From contig JBAZZJ010000001.1 of the NCBI GenBank assembly GCA_041658885.1, forward strand, positions 14,779 to 78,778: a DNA stretch of 64,000 nt, in the 5' to 3' direction. The DNA comes from Minisyncoccota bacterium (lineage in GTDB: Bacteria; Patescibacteriota; Minisyncoccia; Phycocordibacterales; 21-14-all-36-13). Positions within the stretch are counted from its first letter, which is position 1. Each line of letters starts with the position of its first letter. Made by a program: the position numbers and the translations under genes. Below the pieces are notes generated by a model. It saw only the letters and a program-made list of their open reading frames with translations. It did no database searches and was not told the origin of the DNA. Positions 2,030 to 63,732 of this stretch are shown one piece after another.

Positions 2030-2150
2030 ATGGATCCCGTTAGAAACCGCGGTCACGGTTTAAAAACGGGGATTATAATGATGAGAAACATAGTATTACA
2101 AATTTAATTAAGCAGAGTGCGGTTGACCGCGACCTGCTTCTAACGGGATG
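2030..2150 (+). repeat. Start-codon hairpin element (family A), arms ATCCCGTTAGAA / TTCTAACGGGAT
   Basis: 12-bp perfect inverted repeat 2034-2045 / 2138-2149, flanked by ATGGA (2030) and ATGGA (2148, the gene start); internal hairpins 2045-2060 and 2119-2130. Confidence 0.8.
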
Positions 2151-3712: not shown

Positions 3713-5470
3713 ATGAACAAGACAAAATTTTTTTACACAACAATCTTCTTTATTTTTTTTATTTCACTATTCTTTGTTTTCAATAATGCAAACGCAGGCC
3801 CTCTTGATAATGTTTCGTATCCAATTCCAGAATTAGGTAATTGTGGCTCTGTTTCAGAGTGTATGACATTTTGTGATATTTCAGAAAACCAAATTGCTTG
3901 TATTGATTGGGCGGCAAGTAAAAAGATGGTTTCAGAAGGGGAAGCTAGAAAAGTCAGAGATATGAATAAAAAGGAAGAAGAATTTAAACCAGGACCGGGT
4001 GGTTGTATATCTCCGCGAGAATGTGATGCATATTGCAGAGTGGAAGAAAATCTTCGTGAATGTATGGATTATAGTGTAAGAAAGGGGTACATGCCTAAAG
4101 AAGAAGCCGATGGAATAATTGCTAAAACAGAAAAAGGCGGTCCTGGTGGATGTAAATCAAAAAGCGAATGTGAAAATTTTTGTAAAAATCCAGAAAATGC
4201 CGATGAATGTCTTTCTTTTGTAGTAGACGAAGGGAAAATAACAAAAGAAGAAGCTGAATTTATGAAAGAGAGAATGAAAGAAGGGTCAAAAAAACCAAAA
4301 CGACCAGCACCAGAAGAAGAAGGAATTGATACTGAAAAAGTCCAAACAATCTTGAAAGAACAAACCGGACCGGGCGGGTGTACAAATATGGGAGAATGTC
4401 AGAAATATTGTATGGATTTTAACAATGCACAAGAATGTATGGAATTTGCCGTTAAACACCAAATAACAAAAACACCACAGGACCTTGAAAGAATAAAAAA
4501 AATTTCACAAATAAAATCAGGCCCCGGAGGATGTACAGGTCCTAACGAGTGTGATGCATTTTGTAGTAAAGAAGAAAACAGAGACGAATGTTTTAGATTT
4601 ACAAAAGAAAATCAGTTGATGTCTGAAGAAGAAATCCAAAAGATGGAAAAGGAAATAGAAATAGTTAAAAAACTCAAAGGAGGAGAAATGGTTGGTCCCG
4701 GCGGATGCAAGGGTCCAGAAGAATGTAATGCATTTTGTAGCAATTCGTCAAACATAGAAGAATGTATTAATTTTAGTGGGCAACACGGAATGCTTAATAA
4801 AAACACGGTCCAACAAATGATGGGGAAAACACAAGAAGCAAGACAAAAATTAATGGAAGTTGAAGAATTTAAGAGATTTAAAGGAATGGAACAAAACGGT
4901 GAGTTTAAAAATGGAGTTCCTGGAGAATTTATGAAATTTGGTCCACCACCGGGTGGTTTTGAGAACAAAGAAATGATGCCACCTGAAGCAACACAGATGA
5001 TGAAACCAGATGGATTTGTTCCACGAAGAGAAATGATACCGCAAGGTAATATGATTTTTCCTCCCCAAGATTTTCAAAAATACATGCCAGACGGAAGACA
5101 AGGAACAATGCCACCGGAAGGATTTTCTCCTCCGGAAGGTTTTGAAAAATTTATGCAACAATATCAAATACCACAAGAAGGAAATCAACCTTATCCAACA
5201 ACACCTCCGAGTGGATCTTATCCACCCCCTCCTAGTGGAACATATCAAGCACCACCAAGTGGATCCTATTCACCTCCTCCTAGTGGAACATATCAAGCAC
5301 CACCAAGTGGATCTTATCCACCTCCTCCTAGTGGAACATATCAAGCACCACCAGAAGGTTCTTACCCAACTCCAACGAACACAACAGGACCTTCCAGTTT
5401 TAATTCAAAAACTCTCATGGGCACAGTTTTAGAGGCTTTTTCCAGTTTGTTAGATAAAATAAATAAGTAA
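3713..5470 (+). CDS. Secreted modular protein: six GPGGC-x-EC-x2-(F/Y)C-x-EC four-Cys modules plus a Pro-rich PPSGSY/PPSGTYQA C-terminal repeat
   Basis: Signal peptide; six repeated Cys modules readable in the translation; 48-bp tandem repeats near the 3' end. Confidence 0.7.
   Translation: MNKTKFFYTTIFFIFFISLFFVFNNANAGPLDNVSYPIPELGNCGSVSECMTFCDISENQIACIDWAASKKMVSEGEARKVRDMNKKEEEFKPGPGGCISPRECDAYCRVEENLRECMDYSVRKGYMPKEEADGIIAKTEKGGPGGCKSKSECENFCKNPENADECLSFVVDEGKITKEEAEFMKERMKEGSKKPKRPAPEEEGIDTEKVQTILKEQTGPGGCTNMGECQKYCMDFNNAQECMEFAVKHQITKTPQDLERIKKISQIKSGPGGCTGPNECDAFCSKEENRDECFRFTKENQLMSEEEIQKMEKEIEIVKKLKGGEMVGPGGCKGPEECNAFCSNSSNIEECINFSGQHGMLNKNTVQQMMGKTQEARQKLMEVEEFKRFKGMEQNGEFKNGVPGEFMKFGPPPGGFENKEMMPPEATQMMKPDGFVPRREMIPQGNMIFPPQDFQKYMPDGRQGTMPPEGFSPPEGFEKFMQQYQIPQEGNQPYPTTPPSGSYPPPPSGTYQAPPSGSYSPPPSGTYQAPPSGSYPPPPSGTYQAPPEGSYPTPTNTTGPSSFNSKTLMGTVLEAFSSLLDKINK
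5204..5350 (+). repeat. 48-bp in-frame tandem repeat x3 (PPSGSYPPPPSGTYQA)
   Basis: AGTGGATCYTATYC recurs at 5210, 5258 and 5306. Confidence 0.8.
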
Positions 5471-12097: not shown

Positions 12098-12159
12098 ACG
12101 CAGATTCACCCCGCCAAAGGCGGGGTAAACGCAGATAAAAATTGCAGATTAACGCAGAT
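12097..12159 (+). repeat. AACGCAGAT x3 cluster around the minimal hairpin TCACCCCGCC-AAA-GGCGGGGTA
   Basis: AACGCAGAT at 12097, 12128 and 12151; 7-bp GC stem 12109-12115/12119-12125; overlaps the nth stop codon. Confidence 0.75.
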
Positions 12160-12419
12160 GAAATAAGTGGATATTAGGTTTCTTGTTTTTTTGTTTTGGT
12201 GTAAACTATATAGGTAATCAAAATTGTATGAAGAAATTTATAACTGACAGACCTACAAGAATCGCGTTTTTATCGGGGTTCTTTAGCGTTGTTATAACCC
12301 TATTTAATATACTATTGAAAAAATAGTCTAATTTTAAGCAATTTTGTGCTTTTAATACCTATTTTTTGATAAAAATGCCTTTTAATTTAAAAAGGACTCT
12401 TGTGGTATAATTAAACATT

Positions 12420-15059: not shown

Positions 15060-15190
15060 ATGGATCCCGTTAGAAATAAAAAGAGATAGTATATAGAAAA
15101 TAACCATCAAATATAAAAAGGTCAACAAATTAAAAATTAATTAAATAAATCGCGGAAATGCCTTCGGCAATCCCGATTTCTAACGGGATG
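15060..15190 (+). repeat. Start-codon hairpin element (family A), arms ATCCCGTTAGAAAT / ATTTCTAACGGGAT
   Basis: 14/14 inverted repeat 15064-15077 / 15176-15189, flanked by ATGGA (15060) and ATGGA (15188, the tkt start). Confidence 0.85.
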
Positions 15191-22567: not shown

Positions 22568-22697
22568 ATGGATCCCGTTAGAAATAAAACACGGGACAAG
22601 CAGATAAAAACAAATAGAATGTGAACGATAGTATCAAACAAAAATTATAAATTAACTCACGGAAATGCTTTTGGCAATTCCGATTTCTAACGGGATG
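22568..22697 (+). repeat. Start-codon hairpin element (family A), arms ATCCCGTTAGAAAT / ATTTCTAACGGGAT
   Basis: 14/14 inverted repeat 22572-22585 / 22683-22696; ATGGA at 22568 (6 nt after TATAAT 22556-22561) and ATGAA at 22695 (the prfA start). Confidence 0.85.
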
Positions 22698-34119: not shown

Positions 34120-34172
34120 AAAAATAATTATTCAAACTTTTTAAAAAATCAAAAAATATTTTTATCTTTTCC

Positions 34173-34195
34173 CATTCTCTAATTCAATTGAATAG
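34173..34195 (+). promoter_or_regulatory. Shortened copy of the 31-nt repeat, directly upstream of a TGTATGAT -10-like box for the ArsR gene
   Basis: CATTCTCTAATT..ATTGAATAG shares both ends of the 34578/35747 repeat unit. Confidence 0.45.
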
Positions 34196-34262
34196 TTGTA
34201 TGATGGATTTTTAAGAGATATAATATATTTTTGAAATATTAGAAATTAAAAATATCAAAAAC

Positions 34263-34541
34263 ATGATTGAGGCAAAACAATTTAAAAAAGTAGAAACATC
34301 AATAAAAGCGATAGCAAATTATCGTAGATTAGCAATTGTTTCGTTGTTAAAAAAGAACGGAGAAATGTCGGTAGGTGATATAGCCGAAGAATTGAAGATT
34401 TCTATACAGGCCATCTCGAAACATCTCAAACTTTTAGAAAGAGCAGATATATTATCTTCAGACCAGAGAGGTTTATTGGTTTATTATTTTTTAAATAAAC
34501 CATTACCAAATTTTGTTTCGAATATTGTTTCAACACTTTAA
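34263..34541 (+). CDS. ArsR/SmtB-family winged-helix regulator
   Basis: RRLAIVSLLKKNGEMSVGDIAEELKISIQAISKHLKLLERADIL. Confidence 0.75.
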   Translation: MIEAKQFKKVETSIKAIANYRRLAIVSLLKKNGEMSVGDIAEELKISIQAISKHLKLLERADILSSDQRGLLVYYFLNKPLPNFVSNIVSTL

Positions 34542-34577
34542 TTTTTATTTTGATATTTTTCATGCCCCACAGGAAAC

Positions 34578-34714
34578 TATTTTCTAATTTAATTAAATAG
34601 TTGAATAGTGAAGTTTAGCGATTAAAAATGTATTTTCTAATTTAATTAAATAGTTGAATAGTGAAGTTTAGCGATGAAAAATGTATTTTCTAATTTAATT
34701 AAATGGTTGAATAG
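34578..34714 (+). repeat. Three direct 31-nt repeats TATTTTCTAATTTAATTAAAT(A/G)GTTGAATAG at 53-bp period
   Basis: Units 34578-34608, 34631-34661 and 34684-34714; intervening 22-mers nearly identical; core ATTTAATTAAAT is palindromic. Confidence 0.85.
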
Positions 34715-34833
34715 TTTTGGTATATAAAGAGATTATTGAATTTATAGAAAATTTGGTGTATTTTAAACTATGTAAGGTATAGAAAAACTTTATGAAAAAA
34801 GAAACTGATTCATAAATCTTTATATTTAAAATT

Positions 34834-35676
34834 ATGGCGCCAGATAAATACAAATCTATATGGGTATCACATTCTTCCATTGGAGATTTCTTAAAATGTC
34901 CACGGGCTTATTATCTGCATAATGTTTATAAAGACACCAAAACGGGAAGAAAAATAAATATTGTTAATCCTGCGCTTTCTCTTGGCCAAGCGGTGCATAC
35001 AATCCTTGAGTCATTAAAAAATGTTCCAGTTGAAGAAAGAATGAAACGAGATTTATTAGCTGATTTTGAAGTTGCTTGGTTACAAGTGTCTGGGAGAAAA
35101 GGTGGATTTAAAAATAGCGACGAAGAAGCCAAGATTAAAAAACGAGGCATTGAGATGATAAAACGAGTTATAAAAAATCCGGGACCGATTGCAAATAAAA
35201 CCATTAAAATAAAGCAAGGACATAATAATATGCCACCAAATTTTTACCTTTCTGAAGATGAAAATATAATACTTTGTGGGCTTGTTGATTGGTTGGAATA
35301 TATTGAAGAAGATGACAGCGTTCGTATTCTTGATTTTAAAACTGGCAAAAACGACGAAGCTGAAGATTCACTTCAACTCCCAATTTATCTCTTGCTTCTA
35401 AGTGCATTACAAAAACGAAAAATTTCTGGGGCGTCATATTGGTATCTTAATAAAGATGATAAACCAACAGAGATGACATTGCCCGATATTAATGAAGCTA
35501 AAGAAAAAGTACTCACGGTTGCTTTGAAAGTTAAAGAAGCCAGAGAAAAAGAAACTTTTAATTGTTCGCGCGGAGATAAAGGATGTTTTGCTTGTAAATC
35601 ATACGAATCTATTTTGAAAGGTGAGGCGGAATATATTGGTATTGGTGGCTATGGACAGGACATGTATTTTTTATAG
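34834..35676 (+). CDS. PD-(D/E)XK nuclease, Cas4/AddB-like with a four-Cys cluster
   Basis: N-terminal CPRAYYL, LVDW, ILDFKTG (D-x-K), QLPIY and C-terminal C-x6-C-x2-C. Confidence 0.75.
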   Translation: MAPDKYKSIWVSHSSIGDFLKCPRAYYLHNVYKDTKTGRKINIVNPALSLGQAVHTILESLKNVPVEERMKRDLLADFEVAWLQVSGRKGGFKNSDEEAKIKKRGIEMIKRVIKNPGPIANKTIKIKQGHNNMPPNFYLSEDENIILCGLVDWLEYIEEDDSVRILDFKTGKNDEAEDSLQLPIYLLLLSALQKRKISGASYWYLNKDDKPTEMTLPDINEAKEKVLTVALKVKEAREKETFNCSRGDKGCFACKSYESILKGEAEYIGIGGYGQDMYFL

Positions 35677-35746
35677 AAAATATTATTAATTTAAGCCATA
35701 TACCGTGTCCAAAACGTGCGTGACTTAACTATTCTCTCCAGGAAAC

Positions 35747-35876
35747 CATTCTCTAATTTAATTAAATAGTTGAATAGTGAAGTTTAGCGACGAAAAATGT
35801 ATTTTCTAATTTAATTAAATAGTTGAATAGTTTCATTTCCATATGTATTTTCTAATTTAATTAAATGGTTGAATAG
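35747..35876 (+). repeat. Second block of three copies of the same 31-nt repeat
   Basis: Units 35747-35777, 35800-35830 and 35846-35876; first spacer matches the upstream block; upstream CAGGAAAC homology also shared. Confidence 0.85.
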
Positions 35877-36006
35877 TTCAATATAAAACAAATAGTGTTT
35901 TTAGGGAATTTTGAGAATTTGGAGGATTATTCAAATTTTTTCAAAAAATTTTTAAAAAGTTTTCTAAAATGGTAGAATATAAATAGAGGTTTAGCTAAAT
36001 AAAGAT

Positions 36007-42402: not shown

Positions 42403-42990
42403 TTTTTAAAAAAATCTATCCCGTTAAATAAAAGAGCCGGGGGTTCAGAGTACCCCGGCTTGTTAAATAATCTCTATGTTGAGGTGAGTTATTTAACTGA
42501 CAAACTCATAATAAATACATTCATAAAAAATCTCCCTTTGCCGATCTTTACCTGTGGGGATATGGAGCATGTACCTCACTGAGTTATAGTACTATGTCCA
42601 CAAATAATAATATCATAAATCAAGGAAAATAAAAAAAAGCGCAGATTACGTCTGCGCTTTTGCTTCTTCATCGTATGAATCTCTCTCCAATTAAAAACTG
42701 GGAGATGTTCAGCTCTTTTTATCTTAAATGAACTCCCGTTAGGGTTATTTATAATTTAGCATGTCTTTTTAAAAAAGCAATAAAAGGGGACAACTTTTGA
42801 TTGTCCCCTTAAAAAGATGCCTAAGAAGAGGTTACTTGTTCCTACAACAAGCCCTCGTTTTCGCTTTAGCAAATTTTTCATTTAGTTCCTCCAATTTTTA
42901 AGAAAAGGAACTTTTACTGGTTCTCTAAAGAACCAATGTTATTCTAATATAAAATATTTTTTTTTGCAATAAATTTATTGTATAATTCAT

Positions 42991-43045
42991 CCTGTGGAAT
43001 ATGATGCTTTAGCATCATAAAACCTAAAGGTTTTTATTTCACGGG
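42991..43045 (+). repeat. 55-nt three-stem element immediately 5' of leuS (homolog of 50284-50341)
   Basis: Outer stem CCTGTGGAAT/ATTTCACGGG (two G-U), hairpins ATGATGC-TTT-AGCATCAT and AAAACC-TAA-AGGTTTT; TATAAT 42981-42986 just upstream. Confidence 0.75.
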
Positions 43046-43055
43046 ATAAAATATA

Positions 43056-45563
43056 ATGAAAAAGTACGACCATTCCAAAATAGAGAGTAAGTGGCCCCGA
43101 AAGAAACTTTCTGTGTCTAAAGACACAGGTTTCTTACGGGGTAAACAGAAAAACTATGATCACAAAAAGATAGAGAGTAAATGGTCTAAGGTGTGGGAAG
43201 AAGGTAAAATCTACAATACAAAAGAAGACAAAAATAAACAGAAATTTTATGTCCTAATCGAATTCCCATATGCCTCAGGAGAAGGATTACATGTAGGGCA
43301 CGTGAGAAGTTATACTGCGCTTGATATTGTTGCGCGAAAAAAGAGAATGGAGGGATTTAATGTTTTATATCCAATAGGGTGGGATGCTTTTGGTTTGCCA
43401 ACAGAAAATTATGCGATTAAAACTGGAATAAATCCAAAAATAATAACTAAAAAAAATACTGACAATTTTAGAAAGCAATTAAAGGCACTTGGCTTTTCTT
43501 TTGATTGGTCTCGCGAAATTAATACATCATCTCCCGAATATTACAAATGGACCCAATGGATTTTTTTACAATTTTTTAAACATGGGCTTGCATACAAAAA
43601 AAGAATGCCAATCAATTGGTGTTTGAGTTGTAAAATTGGTCTAGCAAATGAAGAAGTTGTTAATAGTGTGTGTGAAAGATGTGGAGGACAGGTTGAGAAA
43701 AGAGAAAAGGAACAATGGATGTTAGCAATAACAAAATATGCCGACAGACTTTATGATGATTTGGACAAAACGGAATTTTTGGAAAAAATAAAAATTCAAC
43801 AGAGAAATTGGATAGGCAAGAGTCACGGAACAGAAATAGATTTTAAAATAGAAAACTCGGATAAGATAATTTCTGTTTTTACAACTCGTGTAGATACAAT
43901 TTTTTCAGGGACATTTCTTGTGATAGCACCAGAACATGATTTGGTAGAAAAAATTACAAAAGAAGAATACAGAGAAAAAGTATTTGAATATAGAAAAAAT
44001 GCATCAAAAATTTCACAAATAGATAGAATGTCAGAAGAAAGAGAAAAAACGGGTGTCTTTACTGGTTCATATGCGATAAATCCAGCAACTGATGAAAAAA
44101 TGCCAATATGGATTGCAGATTTTGTTTTAGTTGACTACGGAACGGGTGTCGTTTTTGCTGATGCTCATGATGAAAGAGATTTTGAAATGGCTAAAAAGTT
44201 CGGTATACCATTAAAAGTTTCTTTAAGACCTAATGACGATAAATTATGGGAAGAAGTAAAAAATTTAAGAAAATGTTTTACAGAAGAAGGAACTCTTATA
44301 AATTCTGCCCAATTTGATGGAATGTCTTCAGCAGAAGCTCGTCCAAAAATTACGGAATGGTTAGGGGGAAAAGGTGTAGCTCGTTTTAAAACAACCTATA
44401 AATTACGCGATTGGATTTTTTCAAGACAAAGATATTGGGGAGAACCTATTCCACTTGTTTTCTGTGAAAAATGTGCTTGGGTTCCTATTCCAGAAGACCA
44501 ACTTCCTGTTGAGCTTCCAGATGTTAAAAAATATGAACCGACTGATTCTGGAGAATCACCACTTGCCTCGCTTGAAAAATGGGTAAATGTTAAATGTCCA
44601 AAATGTGGTGGTTCAGCAAAAAGAGAGACAGACACAATGCCGAATTGGGCTGGCTCCTCTTGGTATTGGTTAAGATACACCGACCCCAAAAATGATAAGG
44701 TTTTTGCAGATAAAAAGAAATTGAAATATTGGACTCCAGTAGATTGGTATAACGGAGGAATGGAACACACGACTCTTCATTTACTTTACTCTCGTTTTTG
44801 GCATAAGTTTTTATTTGATATTGGTTTGGTTCCAACTGACGAGCCTTATGTAAAAAGAACATCACATGGAATGATTCTTGGCGATGGAGGAGAGAAGATG
44901 TCAAAGTCCAGAGGAAATGTAATTAATCCCGATGACATAATTGAAAGATTTGGAGCAGATTCGTTTAGATTGTATGAAATGTTTTTAGGTCCATTTGATC
45001 AACAAACAAGTTGGAATTCTGACGGAGTTGTCGGAACGAGAAGATTTATTGAAAAAGTTTGGGGATTATCTGAAAAAATAAATGAAAAAGGTGATGCTAA
45101 CAAAGAAATAGATAATTTTTTAAACAAGACAATTAAAAAAGTTGGTGAAGATATTGAAAATATTAAATTTAATACGGCAGTGAGCTCTATGATGATGTTT
45201 TTAAATTTTGTTTATGATAAAAATACAATTTCAAAAGATTCTTATAAAAAGTTTTTGAAAATTCTTTCGCCTTTTGCTCCGCATATTACGGAAGAGCTTT
45301 GGCAAGAAATTGGAGAAAAAAAATCTGTTCATTTTGAAGCATGGCCTTCTATTGGAGAAATATTTGAAGATGAAAATGTAAACATAATAGTTCAAATCAA
45401 TGGGAAAATGAGAGCCTCTTTTGAAATTAAAAATTTTTCAACAGAAGAAGAGATAAAAGAAAAAGCAGTCTCTCTTGAATCTGTATCAAAATGGATTAAC
45501 GGGGAAAAAATCAAAAAAATCATATATATAAAGGGGAAATTAGTTAACATTGTAACCATTTGA
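43056..45563 (+). CDS. leuS: Leucine--tRNA ligase (N-terminus carries an in-frame hairpin plus a duplicated motif)
   Basis: HVGH (HIGH) and KMSKS motifs, CP1 editing domain, 835 aa. Confidence 0.9.
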   Translation: MKKYDHSKIESKWPRKKLSVSKDTGFLRGKQKNYDHKKIESKWSKVWEEGKIYNTKEDKNKQKFYVLIEFPYASGEGLHVGHVRSYTALDIVARKKRMEGFNVLYPIGWDAFGLPTENYAIKTGINPKIITKKNTDNFRKQLKALGFSFDWSREINTSSPEYYKWTQWIFLQFFKHGLAYKKRMPINWCLSCKIGLANEEVVNSVCERCGGQVEKREKEQWMLAITKYADRLYDDLDKTEFLEKIKIQQRNWIGKSHGTEIDFKIENSDKIISVFTTRVDTIFSGTFLVIAPEHDLVEKITKEEYREKVFEYRKNASKISQIDRMSEEREKTGVFTGSYAINPATDEKMPIWIADFVLVDYGTGVVFADAHDERDFEMAKKFGIPLKVSLRPNDDKLWEEVKNLRKCFTEEGTLINSAQFDGMSSAEARPKITEWLGGKGVARFKTTYKLRDWIFSRQRYWGEPIPLVFCEKCAWVPIPEDQLPVELPDVKKYEPTDSGESPLASLEKWVNVKCPKCGGSAKRETDTMPNWAGSSWYWLRYTDPKNDKVFADKKKLKYWTPVDWYNGGMEHTTLHLLYSRFWHKFLFDIGLVPTDEPYVKRTSHGMILGDGGEKMSKSRGNVINPDDIIERFGADSFRLYEMFLGPFDQQTSWNSDGVVGTRRFIEKVWGLSEKINEKGDANKEIDNFLNKTIKKVGEDIENIKFNTAVSSMMMFLNFVYDKNTISKDSYKKFLKILSPFAPHITEELWQEIGEKKSVHFEAWPSIGEIFEDENVNIIVQINGKMRASFEIKNFSTEEEIKEKAVSLESVSKWINGEKIKKIIYIKGKLVNIVTI
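43095..43146 (+). repeat. Hairpin element CCCCGAAAGAAAC...GTTTCTTACGGGG-TAAAC inside the leuS coding sequence
   Basis: 12/13 outer stem, inner CTGTGTCT-AAA-GACACAG; ends in the GGGGTAAAC tail shared with family B. Confidence 0.75.
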
Positions 45564-50013: not shown

Positions 50014-50283
50014 ATGATTTTGAAAGGTATAAAAAAACTTCAGCAAAAATCACCACAGACTAGGAAAAAAACGTCCTTTTTTATTTCTTTAGTTGTGACA
50101 GTTTTAATTTTTCTTGTTTGGTTATCGGTTTTTAATTTGGGTTCGGGAAAGAAGATTGTTGCGGAAGAAAGCAAAAAAAATAATAGTGAACAAAATTTAG
50201 CAACGCCATTTTCAAAAATAAAGGGCGACCTTGATAAAATTTTTGAGAGTGTACCAGAGAAAATAAACGAATTAAAAAATTAA
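50014..50283 (+). CDS. Small N-terminally anchored protein
   Basis: ATG at 50014, 1 nt after the upstream stop; one TM segment. Confidence 0.4.
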   Translation: MILKGIKKLQQKSPQTRKKTSFFISLVVTVLIFLVWLSVFNLGSGKKIVAEESKKNNSEQNLATPFSKIKGDLDKIFESVPEKINELKN

Positions 50284-50341
50284 CCCCGTGGAACATGGTG
50301 CTTTAGCATCATAAAATCCAAAAGATTTTTATTCCACAGGG
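50284..50341 (+). repeat. 58-nt three-stem element immediately 5' of gyrA (homolog of 42991-43045)
   Basis: CCCCGTGGAA/TTCCACAGGG outer stem, ATGGTGC-TTT-AGCATCAT (G-U), AAAATC-CAAAA-GATTTT; ends 8 nt before the ATG. Confidence 0.75.
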
Positions 50342-63370: not shown

Positions 63371-63732
63371 TGGTGCCCGGGGCGGGAATGTCGCAGTGCT
63401 CCCCCGTGATTTTTTTGTCTCACAAGCTCGACATAAAAAATCATTCGATTCCCGACGAAAGTAAATAAATTTACTTTCTCCCCAATCACTTTGTGCCCGG
63501 GGCGGGAATGTCGCAGTGCTCCCCCGTGATTTTTTTGTCTCACAAGCTCGACATAAAAAATCATTCGATTCCCGACGAAAGTAAATAAATTTACTTTCTC
63601 CCCAATCACTTTGTGCCCGGGGCGGGAATGTCGCAGTGCTCCCCCGTGATTTTTTGTCTCGCAAGCTCGACATAAAAAATCATTCGATTCCCGACGAAAG
63701 TAAATAAATTTACTTTCTCCCCAATCACTTTG
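63371..63732 (-). repeat. Three ~120-bp tandem units, each beginning with a 16-nt copy of the tRNA-Leu(UAA) 3' end
   Basis: TGCCCGGGGCGGGAAT at 63374, 63494 and 63614 (and 63733 in the gene); each unit contains the hairpin GAAAGTAAAT-TT-ATTTACTTTC. Confidence 0.9.

What the first reader, a model, noticed from the sequence alone, without database searches (positions are those of the whole stretch)
43056..43183. leuS N-terminal motif encoded twice around an in-frame hairpin
Seen: codons 2-13 (KKYDHSKIESKW, 43059-43094) and codons 32-43 (KNYDHKKIESKW, 43148-43183) are 27/36 identical at the DNA level, and some of the differences are third-position synonymous changes. Between them lies the hairpin CCCCGAAAGAAAC-TTT-CTGTGTCT-AAA-GACACAG-G-TTTCTTACGGGG plus TAAAC (43095-43146). 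The whole extra segment is 90 nt and is in frame (PRKKLSVSKDTGFLRGKQ...). Removing the hairpin and one repeat gives MKKYDHSKIESKWSKVWEE, a normal-looking LeuS N-terminus. Inference: this is a larger version of the ATGRA duplication seen at family A elements. It could be a long target duplication, a recombination scar, or a site of RNA-level removal or ribosomal bypass.
Basis: partly seen in the sequence, partly recalled or inferred. Interest (0 to 1): 0.65.

Follow-up and report, generated by a model that had tools for sequence, protein, structure and literature searches.

The report
Translated hairpin repeat inside leuS start
A small palindromic repeat sits in frame near the start of the leucyl-tRNA synthetase gene, between two copies of the gene's first twelve codons, and most likely just gives the enzyme a tolerated 30-residue extension; the same odd module recurs in other ultra-small bacteria.

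Summary
The copies match at 27 of 36 bases, and an independent metagenome contig carries the same structure.

The hairpin belongs to a family of small tagged palindromes, with paired arms and a conserved five-base tail. The family is common in this genome, and a 31-nt relative occurs in about half of the sampled genomes of the class, mostly inside reading frames.

The copy-hairpin-copy module recurs in at least 14 other leuS genes across divergent LeuS lineages and is absent from same-genus sisters. It has two states. In 12 genes, including this one, it is fused in frame and the second copy has no start codon. In 3 genes it is a short upstream ORF ending next to a retained second start.

Best reading (0.7): translation starts at the upstream ATG and reads through, so LeuRS carries a floppy 30-residue extension. 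The module is a recombination product at a REP/MITE-like element and is gained and lost by recombination. Bypass or RNA excision is not supported, but no RNA or protein data exist to test it. This is a new variant of a known kind, the Rickettsia-like in-frame palindromes.

The parts
42979..42986 (+). Promoter-like extended -10 box, about 4 nt before the structured leader
   Evidence: Read. The same box and its flank stand upstream of leuS in the same-genus genome G002. Other copies of the leader in the genome are also preceded by a -10-like hexamer. Inferred; no promoter scan was run.
42991..43045 (+). Structured 5' leader ('family B' element): an outer stem closing two small hairpins, ending about 10 nt before the ATG
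   Evidence: A 73-nt repeat shared with the gyrA upstream region at 50262-50334, 77% identical. About ten more copies lie in the genome, most just upstream of start codons. Depth in metagenome contigs jumps here, as expected for a multi-copy repeat.
43056..43058 (+). Start codon actually used for LeuRS (inferred)
   Evidence: It is the only in-frame ATG/GTG/TTG that opens the 835-aa frame with a conserved counterpart. Copy 2 is preceded by CAG, not a start codon.
43059..43094 (+). Copy 1 of codons 2-13: the native 5' end of leuS
   Evidence: Its codon choices and upstream promoter match the same-genus genomes G001-G003.
43095..43141 (+). 47-nt palindromic element: 13-nt arms with one mismatch, an inner 7-bp stem and a 4-nt loop
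   Evidence: The arms resemble the consensus arm of the genome's hairpin families. The same arms with a different but still paired tip occur in leuS of G253.
43142..43148 (+). Five-base tail conserved at the 3' side of this hairpin superfamily, plus two bases; the last three bases read CAG where copy 1 has ATG
   Evidence: The same tail follows 12 hairpins in the genome and a one-to-two-base variant follows 18 more. The tail is kept in all leuS modules seen as DNA.
43149..43184 (+). Copy 2 of codons 2-13, contiguous with the rest of the enzyme
   Evidence: LeuS of relatives aligns from here on, at query residues 29-33. The Pfam class I synthetase domain starts at residue 43. The AlphaFold model puts the canonical first helix at residues 36-50.
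43056..45563 (+). leuS open reading frame (835 aa) including the 30-residue extension
   Evidence: It is the only LeuS-grade match in the 674-kb genome; the other four hits have E of 5e-18 or weaker and look like other class I synthetases.

Best explanation
The hairpin is one copy of a family of small palindromic repeats of REP/MITE type. These have two paired arms, a variable tip and a conserved five-base unpaired tail. They litter this genome, and their relatives are spread through the class. In leuS the element lies inside the reading frame, right after codon 13, and is followed by a second, diverged copy of codons 2-13. The upstream copy is the gene's own start. Ribosomes start at the ATG at 43056 and read straight through copy 1, the hairpin and copy 2. 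The enzyme is therefore made with a 30-residue N-terminal extension: 12 duplicated residues plus an 18-residue linker encoded by the element. Copy 2 forms the normal first helix of the catalytic domain. Nothing is removed at the RNA level and no ribosome hop is needed. The module itself is a recombination product formed at the element. It is passed on or exchanged between leuS genes of these bacteria. It can expand by unequal crossing-over between the two copies, and I infer it can collapse back to a normal gene the same way. In some genomes the same module is read instead as a short upstream ORF whose stop lies at or just past a retained second start codon. Shown: the anatomy, family membership of the hairpin, recurrence, the two states and the absence from sister genomes. 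Inferred: which start codon is used, the read-through, how the module arose, and that the extension is harmless.
For: (1) Necessity. There is one leuS in a 97.8%-complete genome. Copy 2 has no start codon, and the only conserved in-frame start is at 43056.
(2) Frame. In all 5 of 5 genomes whose copy 2 lacks a start codon (G000, G253, G141, G035, G018), the inserted segment is stop-free and a multiple of three: 90, 96, 69, 69 and 72 nt. G018 carries a one-base-longer element, so its tail is read in a different frame, and the segment length is restored by extra bases.
(3) Stop avoidance. The arms here differ from the arm consensus of the genome's own hairpins at exactly the positions that would read TAG (left arm) and TAA (right arm) in this frame. 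One of the changes is compensated on the other arm.
(4) Family. The same tail follows 30 hairpins in this genome. A same-family hairpin lies in frame in a polA-like ORF.
(5) The related 31-nt element. Of the 80 metagenome loci listed, 50 are real-looking copies, and 34 of those 50 lie inside ORFs of at least 120 aa that read through them. Its 16-nt core occurs in 40 of 401 genomes of the order against 0 for the reversed control. The element is hit in 190 of 401 genomes of the class.
(6) Recurrence of the module. It is found in genomes G035, G018, G141, G253 and G670, in loci L056 and L115, and in 7 of the 16 proteins I fetched from the top phmmer hits.
(7) Gain and loss. The module is missing in same-genus sisters: G001-3, G371 versus G141, and G219 versus G035. 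A LeuS tree of 32 rows needs at least 4 changes for the 5 carriers. One protein carries a triple copy with two identical spacers.
(8) Decay. G035 has a weak hairpin (-8.6 kcal/mol), and G047 has a decayed first copy and hairpin yet is still in frame.
(9) Structure model. Residues 13-30 have pLDDT below 50, and copy 2 forms helix 36-50.
(10) Polarity. In rpmB the upstream fragment is identical to the sister genome's single native start.
Against: There are no RNA or protein data at all, so read-through is inferred from frames only.
The seven protein-only examples were found as fused ORFs, so they cannot count as unbiased evidence for open frames.
A purely neutral extension does not explain three things. 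First, copy 1 keeps the conserved residues of the LeuS N-terminal motif in nearly all carriers, and copy 1 and copy 2 differ mostly at synonymous sites (5 of 7 codons here, 4 of 5 in L115; my reading). Second, pairing of the hairpin is kept by compensatory change: the tips differ between G000 and G253 but both pair, and one stem position of the 31-nt family shows all four Watson-Crick pairs. Third, the left junction, directly after the TGG of codon 13, is the same in every module.
The 31-nt element is 90-100% identical across families of a whole class. That suggests either active spread or a function.
Two proteins (P0013, P0062) may carry an N-terminal duplication without any spacer, so the duplication need not depend on the hairpin.
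The AlphaFold model is mediocre (mean pLDDT 71.7), and most rows of its alignment lack the extension.
Confidence: 0.7

Rival explanations
1. The hairpin is kept by the host as a cis-acting RNA (or DNA) structure that tunes leuS expression. Copy 1 would serve as a translation on-ramp, either fused to the enzyme or as a coupled upstream ORF. The hairpin, 40 nt into the message, would set ribosome flow or mRNA stability. The peptide it encodes would be a by-product.
For: Pairing is maintained by compensatory changes. Copy 1 stays conserved even in the three modules where it is only an upstream ORF (L056, L115, G670). In those three the upstream ORF ends at or within a few bases after the second ATG, a layout that suits termination-reinitiation. 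Many genes of this genome carry structured elements abutting their start codons.
Against: Most leuS genes lack the module, including three genomes of the same genus. The hairpin is decayed in G035 and G047. The same elements sit at apparently arbitrary places inside many unrelated genes. No Rfam family matches.
Confidence: 0.17
2. Programmed ribosomal bypass or RNA excision. The ribosome takes off at the TGG that ends copy 1 and lands at the TGG that ends copy 2, or the 90 nt are cut out of the RNA. Either way a canonical LeuRS is made.
For: Take-off and landing codons match, and a stable hairpin starts right after the take-off codon. Removal of exactly 90 nt gives a normal N-terminus. No RNA or protein data exclude it.
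Against: There is no stop codon after the putative take-off codon. The spacer is open and in frame in 5 of 5 genomes that need it, including a compensated frame shift. Arm changes remove potential stops. Decayed hairpins persist in frame. Modules that do contain stops have their own second ATG instead. The features of T4 gene 60 and of yeast mitochondrial bypass elements used for comparison are recalled, not taken from a call.
Confidence: 0.04
3. Copy 1 plus the hairpin is a separate leader, and LeuRS starts at an internal non-canonical or GTG start inside the spacer.
For: An in-frame GTG lies inside the hairpin.
Against: The spacers of G253, G141, G035 and G018, as printed, show no conserved in-frame start. 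No purine-rich ribosome-binding stretch precedes the GTG, and it is buried in the stem.
Confidence: 0.03
4. Assembly artefact: two strain variants of the leuS 5' end were joined in tandem.
For: The genome is a 27-contig metagenome bin with 5.7% contamination.
Against: A contig from a different study carries the same copy-hairpin-copy stretch with 5 substitutions and no gaps. The same architecture occurs in at least 7 other assemblies.
Confidence: 0.01

Closest known systems
Rickettsia palindromic elements (RPEs)
   Same: A repeated palindromic DNA family that inserts into unrelated housekeeping genes in frame and is translated as an extra peptide compatible with the protein fold. RPE facts come from passages of PMC10969869.
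   Different: RPEs are about 150 bp and belong to Rickettsia. Here the elements are 31-52 nt plus a five-base tail, in Patescibacteria. No sequence relation was tested. At leuS and rpmB the element is flanked by a duplicated 5' end of the gene, which I did not see mentioned for RPEs in the passages I read.
REP / REPIN elements mobilised by RAYT (Y1) transposases
   Same: These are 20-40-nt G+C-rich imperfect palindromes with an unpaired conserved tag at one end, present in many copies. Some REPs are known inside genes (abstract of PMC3733652). This genome has 5 Y1-transposase-like genes.
   Different: The tag here is neither GTAG nor CGTC. The five Y1 genes are flanked by other hairpins, not by this family. 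Most copies of the 31-nt relative are intragenic rather than extragenic. Mobilisation is not shown.
MITEs that make in-frame fusions (intragenic ERIC, BOX and others)
   Same: Short non-autonomous inverted-repeat elements that can extend host ORFs (PMC10969869).
   Different: A clear target-site duplication is not established here. Flank repeats of up to 6 nt lie 37 nt apart, which does not fit a frame-preserving insertion.
Translational bypass (phage T4 gene 60; mitochondrial bypass elements of Magnusiomyces)
   Same: A hairpin directly after a codon that recurs downstream.
   Different: There is no stop after the take-off codon, and the gap is an open, frame-kept coding stretch. The comparison rests on recalled knowledge.
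Upstream ORFs with overlapping stop and start (termination-reinitiation coupling)
   Same: In L056, L115 and G670 copy 1 plus the element forms a short ORF ending at or just after the second ATG. The rpmB case in this genome has an upstream ORF ending 14 nt before the real start.
   Different: In the window's leuS the second ATG is gone and the two parts are fused into one protein.

Membership tests
Rickettsia palindromic elements (in-frame selfish palindromes) | Multi-copy palindromic DNA family | tested here: met
   this genome; 31-nt relative.
Rickettsia palindromic elements (in-frame selfish palindromes) | Copies lie inside unrelated protein genes, in frame and without stops | tested here: met
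   leuS and a polA-like ORF. 34 of 50 copies of the 31-nt relative lie in ORFs of at least 120 aa.
Rickettsia palindromic elements (in-frame selfish palindromes) | About 100-150 bp units of the described RPE families, in Rickettsia | tested here: not met
   Units are 31-52 nt, and the host is a Patescibacteria genome.
REP/REPIN-RAYT | 20-40-nt imperfect palindrome with an unpaired conserved tag at one end | tested here: met
   A five-base tail is conserved after 30 hairpins in the genome and is invariant in 34 of 34 aligned copies of the 31-nt element. Part of that tail was fixed by the search pattern.
REP/REPIN-RAYT | Tag fits GTAG or CGTC | tested here: not met
   The tail, read on either strand, fits neither. 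The definition is from the abstract of PMC3733652.
REP/REPIN-RAYT | A Y1 transposase gene flanked by the same repeats | tested here: not met
   There are five PF01797 matches, each flanked by its own different hairpins.
MITE | Terminal inverted repeats | tested here: met
   13-nt arms. The outer stem is 93.5% paired across 27 distinct copies of the 31-nt element, with 0 of 500 shuffles as high.
MITE | Target-site duplication of fixed length | tested here: inconclusive
   Both flanks are A-rich. A 6-of-6 flank match occurs in 6 of 48 copies, but the 37-nt offset is incompatible with frame-preserving insertion. No clean filled/empty pair was found.
Programmed translational bypass (gene 60 type) | Matching take-off and landing codons with a hairpin at take-off | tested here: met
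   TGG at 43092-43094 and at 43182-43184, and the hairpin starts at 43095. This follows trivially from the duplication.
Programmed translational bypass (gene 60 type) | Stop codon right after the take-off codon, and a gap that is not constrained as coding | tested here: not met
   The next codon is a sense codon. The gap is open and a multiple of three in 5 of 5 genomes lacking a second start.
Programmed translational bypass (gene 60 type) | Protein lacking the gap-encoded residues | not testable with these tools
   No RNA or proteome data are available.
Leucyl-tRNA synthetase (host gene) | Class I catalytic core, LeuRS editing domain and anticodon-binding domain | tested here: met
   PF00133, PF13603 and PF08264, all above their cut-offs.

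The most novel reading that the evidence does not exclude
A very small tagged hairpin element, conserved at 90-100% identity across a whole class of ultra-small bacteria, colonises the reading frames of essential genes without breaking them. When it lands at a gene's start it drives capture or duplication of the gene's 5' end (leuS in many lineages, rpmB in this genus). This creates either an N-terminal extension or an upstream ORF with restart. That would be an undescribed way for a hairpin element to remodel translation starts, perhaps by one-ended joining of incoming DNA at the hairpin followed by homologous resolution. The host may have adopted the leuS copy for control of the synthetase.
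Probability: 0.3. Interest if true: 0.75.

Novelty: new variant of a known kind. Interest (0 to 1): 0.6.

Why it matters
If the reading holds, Patescibacteria carry their own analogue of the Rickettsia palindromic elements. These are tiny hairpin repeats living inside essential genes of some of the smallest known genomes, where every insertion might be expected to be purged. The leuS module gives a natural series of states: a normal gene, an upstream ORF with restart, an in-frame fusion, a triple copy and decayed remnants. That series shows how a gene start can be rebuilt around a mobile hairpin. It could mislead gene callers and start-site annotation in these genomes. The near-identity of the 31-nt element over a whole class raises a testable question: what moves or preserves it? 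In my searches I found no paper describing such elements in this phylum. Searches returned listings only, with no hit joining these bacteria to palindromic, REP or RAYT terms among the rows shown.

Tried and rejected
Rfam: nothing but tRNAs at gathering level in the window. Only sub-threshold noise appeared around leuS and around one copy of the 31-nt element.

Word-indexed protein search on residues 1-75 returned only 2 proteins, both covering 60% of the query, so it was uninformative.

A class-wide search with a 48-aa query at E 1e-9 found nothing, not even the window's own genome. It is an empty test and cost 401 genomes of the budget.

No RNA holder was listed for the stretch, so expression, junction reads and transcript ends could not be examined.

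I looked for a recombination tract downstream of copy 2 by sliding identity against the three same-genus genomes. The first 30 residues are the least conserved in every pair, so there is no usable signal.

A pairwise identity matrix of copy 1 and copy 2 across six modules was too noisy to decide between one origin and several.

Empty-site comparison for the in-frame hairpin in the polA-like gene: the relatives have a variable linker there, so there is no clean boundary.

Target-site duplication of the 31-nt element is unresolved.

A link between the five Y1 transposase genes and this hairpin family was not found.

My generic inverted-repeat and flank-repeat screen of the genome missed the leuS case itself because of its arm mismatch, so it says nothing about how many other genes carry such duplications.

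The LeuS tree is the quick tree, because the careful search did not finish in the time allowed. Rows shorter than 400 aa (G009, G036, G047) and G027 (no sequence recovered) were left out.

Intein, intron and diversity-generating retroelement readings were considered and dropped on anatomy alone: no splice-type residues, the segment is too small, and the differences between copies are not adenine-specific.

Supplementary files of papers were not consulted.
Full report
What is there. The window is part of contig C1 of a 674-kb, 27-contig genome. A homologue's source name and the record title of a same-order genome place it among the Patescibacteria, near Candidatus Paceibacter. An 835-aa frame runs 43056-45563. 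It is a complete leucyl-tRNA synthetase by Pfam and the only one in the genome. The copies agree at 27 of 36 bases. Of the seven differing codons, five differ synonymously. The palindrome folds stably (z = -3.5 for the region). The structure is not an assembly artefact: a contig of a run from a different study covers 43037-43184 with five substitutions and no gap, and no contig skips the segment.

What the hairpin is. The genome is full of palindromic elements whose 13-nt arms are close to those of the leuS hairpin. They range from 30-45-nt bare hairpins to 110-126-nt elements. A five-base tail directly after the 3' arm is shared. The leuS form follows 12 hairpins and a near-identical form follows 18 more. 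One bare hairpin of the family lies in frame inside a polA-like gene, in a linker that varies among relatives. The leuS arms differ from the family consensus at three positions. In this reading frame the consensus would give TAG in the left arm and TAA in the right arm. The changes remove both, and one is compensated across the stem. The genome also has five Y1 (IS200/RAYT-like) transposase genes, but each is flanked by its own hairpins and none by this family.

The module recurs. Among 41 relatives, LeuS alignments start at query residue 16 or later in 38. They start at residue 1-2 only in the own genome, G035 and G018. A scan of 401 genomes of the order gave 366 with a LeuS match, of which only the best 150 rows were listed. 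Fetching the suspicious ones added G141 and G253, plus a decayed form in G047. Four other fetched loci were ordinary. Each carrier has copy 1, a spacer that starts with a proline codon and ends with the conserved tail, and copy 2. G253 has the same arms as the window but a quite different, still self-pairing tip. G141, G035 and G018 have a shorter 31-32-nt hairpin. A profile-free search of 1.84 billion proteins with the first 80 residues listed 150 of 1822 hits. I fetched 16 whose match began early or was double, and 7 carry the module. One of these has three copies and two identical spacers, and its middle copy resembles the third at its start and the first at its end. That is the pattern expected from unequal crossing-over. 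Three further modules (metagenome loci L056 and L115, and genome G670) keep an ATG on copy 2. There, copy 1 plus the element form a short ORF that stops at or a few bases past that ATG.

The carriers belong to clearly different LeuS lineages. On a quick maximum-likelihood tree of 32 sequences, the five carriers need at least four gains or losses. Same-genus sisters without the module stand next to three of them.

A class-wide relative. I searched metagenome contigs with a pattern built from the short hairpins. It gave at least 118 stretches, of which 80 loci were listed. By their left arm, 50 of the 80 are real copies. 34 of those 50 lie inside ORFs of at least 120 aa that read through them: 24 in one phase, 8 in another and 2 on the opposite strand. 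The host genes include other parts of LeuS, gyrase, other synthetases, ligase, a formyltransferase start, pilin and signal peptides. The 16-nt core occurs in 40 of 401 genomes of the order (39 of 400 without the unpublished G250), with one to three copies each and none for the reversed control. The window's own genome has none. A DNA search with the L115 module hit 190 of 401 genomes of the class, almost always on the element alone at 90-100% identity, with up to 26 first-look candidates per genome. In 34 aligned copies the stem is 93.5% paired (0 of 500 shuffles as high), and one stem position shows all four Watson-Crick pairs. Part of each copy was fixed by my search pattern. Both flanks are A-rich. 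Six of 48 copies have a perfect 6-nt flank repeat, but the 37-nt offset cannot be a frame-preserving duplication, so the insertion chemistry stays open.

How it most likely works. In the window copy 2 has CAG where a start codon should be. No conserved start lies in the spacer, and the gene is single and essential. Translation must therefore begin at 43056 and pass through the hairpin. The same holds for all five genomes whose copy 2 lacks a start: their inserts are 90, 96, 69, 69 and 72 nt and stop-free. In G018 the element is one base longer, so the conserved tail falls in a different frame, and the total length is restored by extra bases. This frame-keeping, the stop-removing arm changes, and the survival of in-frame modules with decayed hairpins (G035, G047) all argue that the segment is decoded, not skipped. 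An AlphaFold model built from a 29-row alignment has a mean pLDDT of only 71.7. It shows the linker (residues 13-30) below 50 and copy 2 as the first helix. This agrees with a loose extension, but most rows of the alignment lack the extension.

Polarity and origin. Copy 1 and the promoter before it look native. The extended -10 box is shared with G002, and the codon choices are shared with G001 and G003. A second gene gives a cleaner picture. In G003 rpmB has a single start. In the window's genome and in G001 the same 23 bases are followed by a hairpin of this family, about 55 bases, and then a second, diverged start that opens the real L28 frame. So what was added is the hairpin plus a diverged 5' end of the same gene. 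This suggests recombination with incoming or misaligned DNA at the hairpin, not a staggered-cut duplication. Whether the leuS module arose once and spread, or many times, I could not decide. The constant junction after codon 13 speaks for one origin. The presence in divergent LeuS lineages, lineage-specific residues shared by both copies, and hairpin types that differ between carriers speak for exchange, conversion or recurrence. The mechanisms I name for this (homology-facilitated illegitimate recombination, one-ended joining by a hairpin transposase) are recalled from general knowledge and are not tested here.

What does not fit a purely neutral reading. Copy 1 keeps the conserved residues of the LeuS N-terminal motif in nearly all carriers, even where it is only an upstream ORF. 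Differences between the copies are mostly synonymous. Hairpin pairing is maintained. The 31-nt element is almost invariant over a class. Either these modules are young and keep being re-formed, or something selects on them. I give 0.17 to a regulatory role, 0.04 to bypass or excision, 0.03 to an internal start, and 0.01 to an artefact.

Comparison with what is known. The closest described things are the Rickettsia palindromic elements and intragenic REP or MITE copies (passages of PMC10969869; abstract of PMC3733652). They share the in-frame, translated, multi-copy palindrome. The differences here are the very small size, the tail that is neither of the two described REP tags, the host phylum, and the duplicated gene start. 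Three literature searches gave listings only and showed nothing on such elements in these bacteria among the rows listed. I therefore rate this a new variant of a known kind, with interest 0.6.

Noticed in passing
window 2034-2149, 15064-15189, 22572-22696: 'Family A' elements of 116-126 nt, with 14-nt terminal inverted repeats, sit exactly at start codons. The right end of the element supplies the first two bases of the downstream ATG. A second ATG with the same next two bases stands just before the left end and opens a short ORF that stops inside the element. At least ten more copies lie elsewhere in the genome.
   Followed up: partly
window 42991-43045 and 50285-50338; about ten more in the genome (for example G000 C2:17412, C3:5135, C4:22857, C5:37732): 'Family B': a roughly 55-nt three-stem element that starts about 4 nt after a -10-like hexamer and ends 5-10 nt before a start codon (leuS, gyrA and others). 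Differences between copies keep pairing if G-U pairs are allowed, so it looks like a conserved RNA leader. There is no Rfam match.
   Followed up: partly
G000 C6:31650-31960 (minus strand), outside the window; L170, L174, L176: rpmB (ribosomal protein L28) has its first 23 bases twice, around a 30-nt hairpin of the same family. The upstream copy equals the single start of sister genome G003. It now opens a 27-codon upstream ORF, and the downstream, diverged copy starts the real protein. G001 shares the arrangement.
   Followed up: yes
G000 C4:37692-37736 (L169): A 45-nt hairpin with the consensus arms and tail lies in frame in the linker between the 5'-nuclease and polymerase parts of a polA-like gene.
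   Followed up: partly
metagenome loci L051-L130; genomes of the class: A 31-nt hairpin-plus-tail element is nearly invariant in sequence. It is hit in 190 of 401 sampled genomes of the class and is mostly inside ORFs, where it encodes a 12-residue peptide. It also sits in signal-peptide and pilin leader regions rich in lysine codons.
   Followed up: partly
G000 C3:21554-22318, C4:4898-5599, C2:64039-64740, C6:11674-11898 (match, minus strand), C6:1468-2145: Five Y1 (IS200/RAYT-like) transposase genes sit in a 0.67-Mb genome, each bracketed by its own perfect hairpins.
   Followed up: partly
window about 12100-12160 (G000 C1:26899) and G000 C1:135700-135790: Arrays of a 24-nt mini-hairpin with the same tail, each unit flanked by the same 6-7-nt word. 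They look like REP clusters.
   Followed up: no
proteins P0013 and P0062: Two LeuS N-termini seem to carry a tandem duplication of about 19 residues of the first helix with no spacer between the copies.
   Followed up: no
L002, L004 versus window 43056-45563: LeuS of same-genus genomes G001 and G003 has open frames of 1024-1040 aa against 835 here. The editing-domain region aligns poorly, so large insertions or a replaced domain distinguish close relatives.
   Followed up: no
window 63373-63731; 34172-35877; 5202-5373: There are three tandem 120-nt units beside a tRNA cluster, 53-nt repeat units in two blocks 1.1 kb apart, and a 24-nt coding repeat.
   Followed up: no
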